Source: Escherichia coli
GTDB taxonomy: Bacteria; Pseudomonadota; Gammaproteobacteria; Enterobacterales; Enterobacteriaceae
Assembly (NCBI RefSeq): GCF_024298765.1
Contig: NZ_CP101210.1
DNA length: 64,000 nucleotides
Strand: one strand, 5' to 3'
In this document: one piece after another, positions 15,001 through 18,000 of the stretch
How the letters are laid out: each line of letters opens with the position of its first letter
Position numbering within the stretch: the first letter of the stretch is position 1
Made by a program: the position numbers

Positions 15001-18000
15001 TAAATTTTGTAACGACTGTGAAGACTGCTGGTGTGAACTGGCTAAGGGAGCAAGCGACCCGGCAAAAATTTTACGTGAACAAGCCGGGTTACGGCAGTAC
15101 CAGTGGCGGACGGAAAATACAAGCCATAGCGTCTGGCCTGTGCAGGGTAGATGCTGTATCCGGCGCCGGGGACAACTATGAACAGAATCGCTACGCTTAA
15201 AGCATTCAGGACATTGCGCTGTTTTGCGTTTTCCGCGGAGATGGAGGGTTATACCGTCAGATCTAATAATTTGTCGACTGCATTACCATCCGCAAGGTAA
15301 CTGTAGAAGTGTCTTAAGAGAGTGCATTGCGTTGCCCATAACTGAAAACAGCTTAGATCCTTGTTCACCAGAAAGTTTCATCCATTTTCTTCCACCCAGG
15401 TTGCGGAAGAGCTACTTTTCATCCGTCGTTGACAAATAATGATGAGATAGTCACAGAGCAGCGTTTGGGAAGCGCACAATCACAATATTGTACGGTTGCA
15501 TTATCGCGGTAGAGTATACCTAGACTGGCCCCCTGAATCTCCAGACAACCAGTATCACTTATTTAAGTGATAGTCTTAATACTAGTTTTTAGACTAGTCA
15601 TTGGAGAGCAGATGATTGATGTCTTAGGACCGGAGAAACGCAGACGGCGTACCACACAGGAAAAGATCGCAATTGTTCAGCAGAGCTTTGAACCGGGGAT
15701 GACGGTCTCCCTCGTTGCCCGGCAACATGGTGTAGCAGCCAGCCAGTTATTTCTCTGGCGTAAGCAATACCAGGAAGGAAGTCTTACTGCTGTCGCCGCC
15801 GGAGAACAGGTTGTTCCTGCCTCTGAACTTGCTGCCGCCATGAAGCAGATTAAAGAACTCCAGCGCCTGCTCGGCAAGAAAACGATGGAAAATGAACTCC
15901 TCAAAGAAGCCGTTGAATATGGACGGGCAAAAAAGTGGATAGCGCACGCGCCCTTATTGCCCGGGGATGGGGAGTAAGCTTAGTCAGCCGTTGTCTCCGG
16001 GTGTCGCGTGCGCAGTTGCACGTCATTCTCAGACGAACCGATGACTGGATGGATGGCCGCCGCAGTCGTCACACTGATGATACGGATGTGCTTCTCCGTA
16101 TACACCATGTTATCGGAGAGCTGCCCACGTATGGTTATCGTCGGGTATGGGCGCTGCTTCGCAGACAAGCAGAACTTGATGGTATGCCTGCGATCAATGC
16201 CAAACGTGTTTACCGGATCATGCGCCAGAATGCGCTGTTGCTTGAGCGAAAACCTGCTGTACCGCCATCGAAACGGGCACATACAGGCAGAGTGGCCGTG
16301 AAAGAAAGCAATCAGCGATGGTGCTCTGACGGGTTCGAGTTCTGCTGTGATAACGGAGAGAGACTGCGTGTCACGTTCGCGCTGGACTGCTGTGATCGTG
16401 AGGCACTGCACTGGGCGGTCACTACCGGCGGCTTCAACAGTGAAACAGTACAGGACGTCATGCTGGGAGCGGTGGAACGCCGCTTCGGCAACGATCTTCC
16501 GTCGTCTCCAGTGGAGTGGCTGACGGATAATGGTTCATGCTACCGGGCTAATGAAACACGCCAGTTCGCCCGGATGTTGGGACTTGAACCGAAGAACACG
16601 GCGGTGCGGAGTCCGGAGAGTAACGGAATCGCAGAGAGCTTCGTGAAAACGATAAAGCGTGACTACATCAGTATCATGCCCAAACCAGACGGGTTAACGG
16701 CAGCAAAGAACCTTGCAGAGGCGTTCGAGCATTATAACGAATGGCATCCGCATAGTGCGCTGGGTTATCGCTCGCCACGGGAATATCTGCGGCAGCGGGC
16801 TTGTAATGGGTTAAGTGATAACAGATGTCTGGAAATATAGGGGCAAATCCACTTCTATAAATAATACTAATTAACCTTTATTATTTTTTAATGGTACATG
16901 AACTGTTTTTAGCTGTAACGATAAACAAATCGCCCAAAACGAAAAATACTGGTTATCATTGCTCAGAAAACTCGTACGAGTGGCAGCTTCCCCCCTGAGC
17001 AATGCTTCATTTTCGGTGGTTCTGTGTGATAGAGTTATGCTGACTACAGTGGCAGTAACACTACTTTCCACCACACGAGGATAAAACCAGTCAAAAAATC
17101 AATTATATGAATTAAAAGTATTTTTTATGAAATGTTATGCATATCAACCAGTATGATTAACAGAAAATTTCATCATGACAACACGTATAACTTTCAATAT
17201 GACCAGTGATGAGACGCTGCGAATTGTGGATGAGTACTGTCATACCCACAAACTTTCGCGCTCTAAGGTAATCGACGCATTACTCAGCGCCACAGCACCT
17301 GTCCTTAACGATATTAACTGTTATTATCAACTTGCAGGCAAACTGCAGTCACGCTTATTAAATGGAGTGTATCAACGGGATCTTCCTCACAAACGCAATG
17401 TCGTCAGTGCAGAGAAGTATTGTCTGGAGATCTGGGAAAACAAACTTTTCACCAAAAGAATCCTGGAGTTTGACAGTTCAAATGGTGTTCTGTACGCGCT
17501 GAAACATAAAAGACACTATCGCCGGGATAAGATGATTGGACGGGTTGAAAGCCGGCGTATCAAAGACATTTGCGAATACCAGATGCAACTGTCCGGGGAG
17601 AAGGCAAAATATGCCTGTTTTATTTATATTGAAAGAACAATATACAATCACGATAATCCATCCGGTGGGACACCTGTAAAAGCGGCTGTTGGTAATGCAG
17701 TCATCCTGCTGGCAAAAGACGTGATATATGACGAGTACTTTTTTGATCTGCGGCAGTCATTTTTCGTGAGCGTTAAAGATCTGATGGCCTCTGGCGCAAA
17801 AGGTATTCCGGAGACACAGAAATATCCGGACGTTTATTGCTGGATCCCGCTTTTCTTCATAAATTCCGGCGTGGTCATTACCCCGGTCTATAAAATTGAT
17901 CCCCGGAAACCCGTAACGGTAAAAAAACCGGATCAGATCACTGTTGTTTGTAATTACAGAGAATAATCTCAGTCTTCTCCGCTCACCGCAACAGTGTTTA

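What the first reader, a model, noticed from the sequence alone, without database searches (positions are those of the whole stretch)
15521..16851. Complete IS2 without a target-site duplication
The IS2 is exactly 1331 bp with intact ends and ORFs, but the 5 bp on either side differ (ATACC vs CTTCT). From memory IS2 makes 5-bp duplications, so this suggests an adjacent deletion or recombination between IS2 copies, consistent with the surrounding IS150-like and ISL3 debris.
Basis: partly seen in the sequence, partly recalled or inferred. Interest (0 to 1): 0.3.

Follow-up and report, generated by a model that had tools for sequence, protein, structure and literature searches.

The report
IS2 marking a 50-kb island deletion
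A complete IS2 insertion sequence in an E. coli pathogenicity island lacks its usual 5-bp flanking duplication because it sits exactly where about 50 kb of the island (pic toxin, cdi genes, sugar-use genes) has been lost, which is an ordinary, well-understood IS-mediated deletion.

Summary
Window 15521-16851 (+) is a full 1331-bp IS2 with exact terminal repeats, orfA/orfB and an intact AAAAAAG frameshift site. It is 99.9% identical to IS2 copies annotated in RefSeq. Its flanks are ATACC and CTTCT, so there is no duplication.

The IS2 lies in the aspV pathogenicity island (yafV to tRNA-Asp). Strains 104 and 9 carry the intact island, with both flanks present, collinear and identical. In those strains the flanks are 49,993 and 48,843 bp apart. 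The window has IS2 in place of that DNA, so pic, cdiBA, PTS and sugar genes, YagK and Hha are gone.

Nine independent IS2 insertions in related loci all have perfect 5-bp duplications. Six IS2 junction pairs without a duplication, including this one, all sit at deletions.

A sister series in the same island shows the pathway. Strain CT282 has an IS2 at window 27500-27504 with the duplication ATTAG. Five other genomes keep that right junction, but their left junctions lie at 15468, 4525, 3763 or 2436.

No precursor of the window's own junctions was found in 5,426 complete genomes or in metagenome contigs. Which side was the original insertion site is therefore unknown.

This is a known phenomenon and of low interest.

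The parts
15521..16851 (+). Complete IS2 (IS3 family), 1331 bp, subtype 'B' (T42 T43 G88 A109 C1110) with one private silent SNP (A648)
15521..15562 (+). IRL, the 42-bp left terminal inverted repeat, starting with TA
   Evidence: IR lengths from PMC3299598
16811..16851 (+). IRR, the 41-bp right terminal inverted repeat, ending in CA-3'
   Evidence: PMC3299598
15612..15977 (+). orfA (121 aa, HTH_Tnp_1)
15929..15935 (+). AAAAAAG programmed -1 frameshift motif joining orfA and orfB
   Evidence: RefSeq copies are annotated 'programmed frameshift'
15935..16840 (+). orfB (301 aa; HTH_21, rve and rve_3 integrase core)
15516..15520 (.). Left junction pentamer ATACC. In intact islands it is followed by GCATGCTAAAA... 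(pic-upstream DNA)
16852..16856 (.). Right junction pentamer CTTCT. In intact islands it is preceded by ...TTACATAAACATA (Hha side)
13724..15269 (-). Frameshifted ISL3-family transposase pseudogene, the left neighbour (context only)
   Evidence: coordinates transferred from G12 through the alignment
27500..27504 (.). ATTAG, target of a second subtype-B IS2 insertion in other strains. CT282 has it duplicated. It anchors the sister deletion series. It is empty in the window
48618..48694 (-). tRNA-Asp (aspV), the right boundary of the island. The left boundary (yafV) lies just before window position 1

Best explanation
An intact IS2 inserted once into the aspV pathogenicity island, at either ATACC (15516-15520) or CTTCT (16852-16856), and made the normal 5-bp duplication. 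Later a second joint at the other IS2 terminus removed all DNA between the two sites, about 50 kb, together with one copy of the duplication. One IS2 was left with unrelated flanks. My split on the chemistry is inferred, not shown. About 60%: a copy-out/paste-in hop of IS2 to a nearby site in direct orientation, followed by homologous recombination between the two 1.3-kb copies. About 40%: a direct intramolecular attack by a reactive IRR-IRL junction, as in an (IS2)2 tandem dimer. Shown: IS2 is complete, both junctions sit exactly at its termini, and the flanks are collinear parts of one island that lie 48.8-50 kb apart in intact relatives. Inferred: the order of events, which side is the original insertion site, and the chemistry.
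For: (1) IS2 is complete and both termini are exact. (2) The left flank, window 8020-15520, equals strain 9 DNA at 99.96% and stops at 15520, while strain 9 continues. The right flank, 16852-43500, equals strain 104 at 99.99% and starts exactly at 16852. (3) In strains 9 and 104 the two sites lie on the same strand and in the same order, 48,843 and 49,993 bp apart. Strain 104 has both sites empty and pic intact. (4) There is no microhomology at either junction and no point differences in the 100 bp on each side. (5) Controls: nine independent IS2 insertions have perfect 5-bp duplications, namely CCCGG, GTTAT, TTCAG, CATGG, TAACG, CACAG, ATTCA, AGCCG and ATTAG. Six junction pairs without a duplication all coincide with deletions in this island. 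(6) A precursor-product series exists in the same island. CT282 has a subtype-B IS2 at 27500-27504 with the duplication ATTAG. G12, HCM-28C-2, 14EC020, CT265 and MSHS 133 keep the identical right junction. The IS2 itself is identical in four of them, and 14EC020 has two extra changes. Their left junctions are at 15468, 4525, 4525, 3763 and 2436. (7) Literature: IS2 integration normally gives direct repeats (PMC3299598). In the long-term evolution experiment, 69 of 69 simple IS insertions had duplications and 14 of 14 deletion-linked IS150 copies (same family) had none. All 14 were explained as insertion followed by a growing adjacent deletion (PMC11708052). A review states that adjacent deletions start precisely at an element terminus and leave it without direct repeats (PMC9330008).
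Against: No precursor was found for this particular IS2. Neither of the window's junctions occurs in any of 5,426 complete E. coli genomes, in JGI metagenome contigs, or, for the left junction, in GTDB representative genomes. The hypothetical junctions 'IS2 right end + ATACC + pic-upstream' and 'Hha side + CTTCT + IS2 left end' were not found either. The two-step order is therefore argued by analogy with the CT282 series and the literature. Canonical copy-out/paste-in chemistry does not by itself delete donor flanks, so an extra step is required: recombination or a dimer junction. Whether the 50 kb is absent from the whole genome cannot be seen in a 64-kb window.
Confidence: 0.85

Rival explanations
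1. One-step event. IS2 arrived and the 50 kb was lost in the same event, for example by integration of an IS2 circle into a pre-existing double-strand break or gap, or by its two ends attacking two distant sites. No duplication was ever made at either junction.
For: No precursor with a duplication at either junction was found in 5,426 genomes or in metagenomes. Ngan et al. propose such events for IS5 and IS481 (PMC11708052).
Against: In the same island a precursor with a normal duplication does exist for the sister series (CT282). All 14 deletion-linked IS150 cases in the long-term evolution experiment proved to be multistep. Absence of a precursor among sampled genomes is weak evidence.
Confidence: 0.05
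2. Assembly artefact. Two different IS2 copies of the real genome were collapsed or mis-joined, giving a chimeric IS2 with flanks from two loci.
For: IS2 is multicopy in E. coli, with a median of 4 and up to 41 places per genome. No other genome shares these junctions.
Against: The two flanks are not random loci. They are collinear parts of one island, in the correct order and orientation. That is what a true deletion predicts and is unlikely for a random mis-join. The window runs through a whole rRNA operon, which points to a finished assembly. Analogous junctions occur in six independent complete assemblies. The IS2 carries a private SNP, which does not look like a consensus of several copies.
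Confidence: 0.04
3. Rearrangement rather than loss. Recombination with a distant IS2 copy moved or inverted the 50-kb segment, which still exists elsewhere in the chromosome.
For: Recombination between dispersed IS copies is a common cause of hybrid flanks. The rest of the genome cannot be inspected.
Against: An inversion would reverse one flank relative to the other, but both have the orientation of the intact island. No part of the segment is present in the 64-kb window. Five related genomes show plain deletions at the same place.
Confidence: 0.05
4. A normal duplication was made and then erased by point mutations.
For: None beyond the general possibility.
Against: ATACC and CTTCT differ at 3 of 5 positions, while the surrounding 100 bp on each side are identical to uninterrupted relatives. 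Each pentamer is the native sequence of its own locus.
Confidence: 0.005

Closest known systems
IS2 (IS3 family, IS2 group) as in E. coli K-12 and ISfinder
   Same: Length of 1331 bp, 42/41-bp terminal repeats, orfA/orfB with an A6G frameshift, HTH and rve (DDE) domains. It is 99.5-99.9% identical to copies annotated as IS2 in RefSeq.
   Different: This copy has no 5-bp duplication. It is the 'B' sequence subtype (positions 42, 43, 88, 109, 1110) plus one private silent SNP.
[quoted passage not shown]
   Same: An IS3-family element retained exactly at the edge of a deletion of up to about 49 kb, with no duplication. Simple insertions of the same element always have one. Deletions are anchored on one IS and extend stepwise.
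   Different: Those cases have time-series proof of the precursor insertion. Here the precursor is documented only for a sister IS2 insertion in the same island (CT282), not for the window's copy.
CT282 to G12, HCM-28C-2/14EC020, CT265 and MSHS 133: a series anchored at window 27500
   Same: Same island, same IS2 subtype and orientation. Junctions lie exactly at the IS2 termini. The G12 left endpoint (15468) is only 52 bp from the window's (15520).
   Different: The anchor differs: the right junction is 27500, not 16852. It is therefore an independent IS2 insertion and deletion, not the ancestor or a descendant of the window's configuration.
PAI-CFT073-aspV of uropathogenic E. coli (tosA and picU island; PMC3088117)
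   Same: Located between yafV and tRNA-Asp. Carries the tos type I secretion operon with a PapB-family regulator.
   Different: The window's version has lost pic, cdiBA and the sugar-utilisation block but keeps tos and the TonB-receptor/ABC iron-uptake operon.
IS100-bounded loss of the 102-kb pgm locus in Yersinia pestis (from my own knowledge, not checked here)
   Same: Loss of a virulence-island segment through an IS, leaving one IS copy with hybrid flanks.
   Different: In that case both parental IS100 copies are known and the event is plain homologous recombination between them.

Membership tests
IS2 (IS3 family) | Length of about 1331 bp with imperfect 42/41-bp terminal inverted repeats (5'-TAGACTGG... 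/ ...CCA-3') | tested here: met
IS2 (IS3 family) | Two overlapping ORFs (orfA, orfB) joined by a -1 frameshift at A6G | tested here: met
   Both ORFs are open and AAAAAAG lies at 15929-15935
IS2 (IS3 family) | HTH DNA-binding domain in OrfA and DDE/RNase-H-like integrase core in OrfB | tested here: met
   HTH_Tnp_1 at 1.8e-19, rve at 1.1e-18, rve_3 at 1.8e-18
IS2 (IS3 family) | Near-identity to reference IS2 copies | tested here: met
   99.9% over 1331 bp, annotated IS2; 6 differences from the common subtype
IS2 (IS3 family) | 5-bp direct target duplication flanking the element | tested here: not met
   ATACC against CTTCT. This is a property of the insertion event, not of the element. Nine sibling copies meet it, and its absence here is explained by the deletion
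IS-anchored (adjacent) deletion | The deletion begins exactly at an intact IS terminus | tested here: met
   Both breakpoints coincide with IS2 base 1 and base 1331
IS-anchored (adjacent) deletion | Flanks are collinear, in the same orientation, and separated by a contiguous segment in intact relatives | tested here: met
   48,843 bp, strain 9; 49,993 bp, strain 104
IS-anchored (adjacent) deletion | The retained IS lacks direct repeats, and the junctions show no microhomology | tested here: met
IS-anchored (adjacent) deletion | A precursor with the IS at one of the two junctions, a duplication, and the segment still present | tested here: inconclusive
   Not found for this copy. Found for the sister insertion at 27500 (CT282)
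IS-anchored (adjacent) deletion | The deleted segment is absent from the rest of the genome | not testable with these tools
   Only 64 kb of the source genome is available, and the source genome is not in the collections
aspV pathogenicity island (PAI-CFT073-aspV type) | Inserted between yafV and tRNA-Asp (aspV), and carrying the tos operon | tested here: met
   PMC3088117

The most novel reading that the evidence does not exclude
The subtype-B IS2 carries changes at positions 42-43, which lie inside the 39-48 stretch reported to hold the OrfA repressor binding sequence, and at position 88 next to the orfA start. It could be a de-repressed variant that acts as a recurrent deletion generator eroding the aspV island in avian and extraintestinal E. 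coli. The window would then be one of at least two independent subtype-B events. Alternatively, this copy arose by a one-step insertion-with-deletion.
Probability: 0.08. Interest if true: 0.4.

Novelty: already known. Interest (0 to 1): 0.13.

Why it matters
The importance is modest. The finding explains a missing target duplication and shows what this strain lost from its aspV island: the Pic serine-protease autotransporter, the CdiBA contact-dependent inhibition system, a PTS and sugar-catabolism block, and Hha. The Tos adhesin operon and an iron-uptake operon were kept. With the CT282-anchored series, it gives a natural-isolate counterpart to the IS150-anchored growing deletions seen in laboratory evolution. 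It also supports a practical annotation rule. A complete IS with intact ends but mismatched flanks is a reliable flag for a deletion or rearrangement, which can be resolved by comparison with relatives that have empty sites.

Tried and rejected
(1) I looked for the precursors predicted by two IS2 copies each with its own duplication. Chimeric queries 'IS2 right end + ATACC + pic-upstream' and 'Hha side + CTTCT + IS2 left end' gave no contiguous hit in 5,426 genomes. The single 100%-coverage row (MS20645) is two pieces 856 bp apart at 91% identity, so it is not a junction.

(2) I looked for the window's own junctions elsewhere. There were none in complete E. coli genomes, none in metagenome contigs, and no left junction in GTDB representatives.

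(3) I first thought G12 (15468 | IS2 | 27500) might descend from a window-like state, because its deletion contains the window's. I rejected this. CT282 shows that the G12 IS2 was inserted at 27500 with a duplication and the whole left side present. The two lineages are therefore independent.

(4) I considered the divergent IS2 inside pic of strain 9 (97.8% identical, duplication GTTAT) as the ancestral copy. I rejected this because 29 SNPs separate it from the window's copy.

(5) I looked for a mosaic SNP pattern in the window's IS2 as a sign of recombination between different subtypes. There is none: it is subtype B throughout plus one private SNP.

(6) Many genomes have an IS2-like element next to an ISL3 fragment, which suggested that IS2 targets ISL3 ends. 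In ACN001 this is an unrelated locus where an internally deleted IS2-like element sits inside another ISL3 copy, so I dropped the lead.

(7) I tested for a shifted duplication caused by a retained 1-2-bp minicircle spacer. No repeat appears at any offset.

(8) I asked whether deletions prefer the IRL side. All four distinct endpoints of the CT282 series lie on the IRL side and none on the IRR side. The left side offers roughly three to four times more deletable DNA, so this is not significant.

Full report
**1. The observation**

Window 15521-16851 on the + strand is a complete IS2. The sequence begins TAGACTGGCCCCCTGAATC and ends GGGGCAAATCCA, a length of 1331 bp. The canonical 30-nt left and right ends each occur once in the window with no mismatch, and shuffles give none. 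It is therefore the only IS2 copy in the 64 kb.

- orfA is 15612-15977 (121 aa).
- The AAAAAAG frameshift motif is 15929-15935.
- orfB is 15935-16840 (301 aa). Both ORFs are intact.
- Pfam finds HTH_Tnp_1 in OrfA and HTH_21, rve and rve_3 in OrfB.

Of 5,426 complete E. coli genomes, 4,853 hold IS2-like DNA. The best matches are 99.9% identical over the full length and are annotated as IS2. The five bases outside the ends are ATACC and CTTCT. No repeat appears if the boundary is moved by one or two bases.

**2. Genomic setting**

The window starts just after yafV. It contains tRNA-Asp (aspV) at 48618-48694, followed by dnaQ and rnhA. Positions of about 1-48,600 are therefore an aspV pathogenicity island. 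It is of the type known from CFT073, which carries tosA and picU (PMC3088117).

To the left of IS2 lie, in order, the tos type I secretion operon, its PapB-family regulator and a frameshifted ISL3 pseudogene. To the right lie a YagM-like gene, an AlpA-type regulator, a TonB-receptor/ABC iron-uptake operon, and further island genes.

**3. Both junctions are breakpoints of one deletion**

No complete genome has the window's arrangement.

- In strain 9, window 8020-15520 matches at 99.96% and stops exactly at 15520. Strain 9 then continues with GCATGCTAAAA..., a pseudogene and pic.
- In strains GPEC1035 and 104, window 16852 onward matches at about 100%. It is preceded by ...TTACATAAACATA and by the Hha, Gp2, zinc-ribbon and YagK genes, which the window lacks.
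- Strain 9 carries both sites on one strand and in the same order, 48,843 bp apart.
- Strain 104 has both sites empty and pic intact, and there they are 49,993 bp apart.

The window has IS2 in place of that segment. The lost genes are pic, a PapB-family regulator, ISEc39, cdiA/cdiB with downstream small genes, a LacI/PTS block, an aldose epimerase, fucP, rbsK, a DeoR regulator, a beta-helix protein, an MFS transporter, cupin, gluconate-5-dehydrogenase, oligogalacturonate lyase, RpiB, YagK, zinc-ribbon proteins, Gp2 and Hha.

The flanks keep their native orientation, so the event is a deletion and not an inversion. The 100 bp on either side are identical to the empty sites, so the missing duplication is not due to mutation. 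There is no microhomology at the joints.

**4. IS2 normally makes the duplication here**

Nine independent IS2 insertions in related loci have perfect 5-bp repeats:

| Strain | Duplication |
|---|---|
| GPEC1035 | CCCGG |
| strain 9 | GTTAT |
| PK8566 | TTCAG |
| S115 | CATGG |
| strain 167 | TAACG |
| MS15046 | CACAG |
| S1-IVC-02-A | ATTCA |
| G12 (copy at 110 kb) | AGCCG |
| CT282 | ATTAG |

Six junction pairs have no repeat: the window, G12, HCM-28C-2 with 14EC020, CT265, MSHS 133 and GPEC1031. All six sit at deletions in this island. A clean 9-versus-6 split has a chance probability of 1 in 5005 (C(15,6)). The cases were not sampled at random, so this figure is only descriptive.

**5. A documented precursor-product series in the same island**

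Six genomes share the junction IS2|ATTAGCCCC at window 27500. In CT282 the IS2 is a simple insertion with the duplication ATTAG, and the whole left side is present.

The other five keep the identical right junction and the same subtype-B IS2. The IS2 sequence is identical in four of them, and 14EC020 has two extra changes. Their left junctions differ:

| Strain | Left junction (window coordinate) |
|---|---|
| G12 | 15468 |
| HCM-28C-2 and 14EC020 | 4525 |
| CT265 | 3763 |
| MSHS 133 | 2436 |

The CT282 left junction occurs in CT282 only. This is the signature of insertion followed by one-sided deletions anchored on the IS.

GPEC1031 is a further, independent case. Its IS2 is subtype A. The left junction is at 4362, and the right junction lies 623 bp to the left of 16852.

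The window's IS2 is subtype B with one private silent SNP. It shares neither junction with any of these genomes, so it is a separate event.

**6. Mechanism**

IS2 transposes by copy-out/paste-in. It forms a figure-of-eight and then a minicircle, whose junction integrates and makes direct repeats (PMC3299598). That chemistry does not itself delete donor flanks. An IS that is retained at a deletion edge therefore needs a second step. Two routes are possible:

- A new copy inserts nearby in direct orientation and recombines with the old copy.
- A reactive IRR-IRL junction in a tandem dimer attacks a site on the same molecule (PMC9330008).

Both routes leave one IS, exact termini and no repeats, and sequence alone cannot distinguish them. 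I favour hop plus recombination, at about 60:40, because it needs only standard IS2 chemistry and RecA.

The long-term evolution experiment gives the same picture for IS150. There, 69 of 69 simple insertions had duplications, 14 of 14 deletion-linked copies had none, and all 14 were multistep (PMC11708052).

**7. What remains open**

No precursor of the window's junctions was found in complete genomes, in metagenome contigs or in GTDB representatives. Three points are therefore inferred and not shown: which of ATACC or CTTCT was the original target, whether one or more deletion steps occurred, and whether the event could have been single-step.

A mis-assembly is unlikely. The flanks are collinear parts of one island, the window spans an rRNA operon, and analogous structures exist in six complete assemblies. 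Only reads can exclude it. Relocation of the segment elsewhere in the genome cannot be tested with 64 kb.

**8. Verdict**

The feature is a known element showing a known consequence of IS activity. Its interest is low, apart from being a clean natural example with a well-resolved sister series.

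Noticed in passing
window 27500-27504, with endpoints at window 15468, 4525, 3763 and 2436; loci L017, L002, L020, L016, L019, L018: One subtype-B IS2 insertion (duplication ATTAG in strain CT282) anchors a nested series of IRL-side deletions of the aspV island in five other complete genomes. The G12 endpoint lies only 52 bp from the window's left junction. The other endpoints (plus 4362 in GPEC1031) cluster in or just downstream of the 3' half of the tosA-like gene.
   Followed up: yes
window 15562-15563, 15608, 15629 and 16630 (IS2 positions 42, 43, 88, 109, 1110): The window's IS2 is a distinct subtype. AA->TT at positions 42-43 is a flip of the centre of the palindrome CACTTAAATAAGTG. It lies inside the 39-48 stretch reported to hold the OrfA repressor binding sequence (PMC3299598). 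Position 88 lies just upstream of the orfA start. A possible effect on IS2 regulation was not tested.
   Followed up: partly
L016 9314-9315 (strain 14EC020): The IS2 at the 4525|27500 junction has its left terminal dinucleotide changed from TA to TT, plus one internal SNP. HCM-28C-2 has the same junctions with the normal TA.
   Followed up: no
window 2796-7628 (-): The tosA-like repeat protein ORF is 1,610 aa and contains 1005-bp tandem repeats. One search shows three in-register matches at 4823, 5828 and 6833, 97-100% alike. It has one more unit than the 1,275-aa allele annotated in G12 and strain 104.
   Followed up: partly
window 27824-27898 (-): ARAGORN calls a tRNA-Gly(GCC) here, inside a CDS annotated as a hypothetical protein in related genomes. 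Rfam at gathering threshold does not find it. It is probably a false positive or a decayed tRNA-like remnant near an integrase fragment.
   Followed up: partly
window 21600-21655 and 27362-27417: A 56-nt direct repeat (77% identical) brackets the TonB-dependent receptor/ABC iron-uptake operon. Its meaning is unknown.
   Followed up: no
L003 9449-10779 / L007 2594-3924 (strain 9): pic is split by a divergent IS2 (97.8% identical, 29 differences) with the normal duplication GTTAT. Strains E371 and Jnd12 gave a similar left-flank, IS and peptidase hit pattern but were not inspected.
   Followed up: partly
window 16852-19300 and homologous modules (L001, L006, L008-L011): The Hha / YagM-like / AlpA module carries IS2 at six different positions in six strains, five of them with duplications. 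This may reflect a target-rich, AT-rich region. The sample was enriched by the way it was searched.
   Followed up: partly
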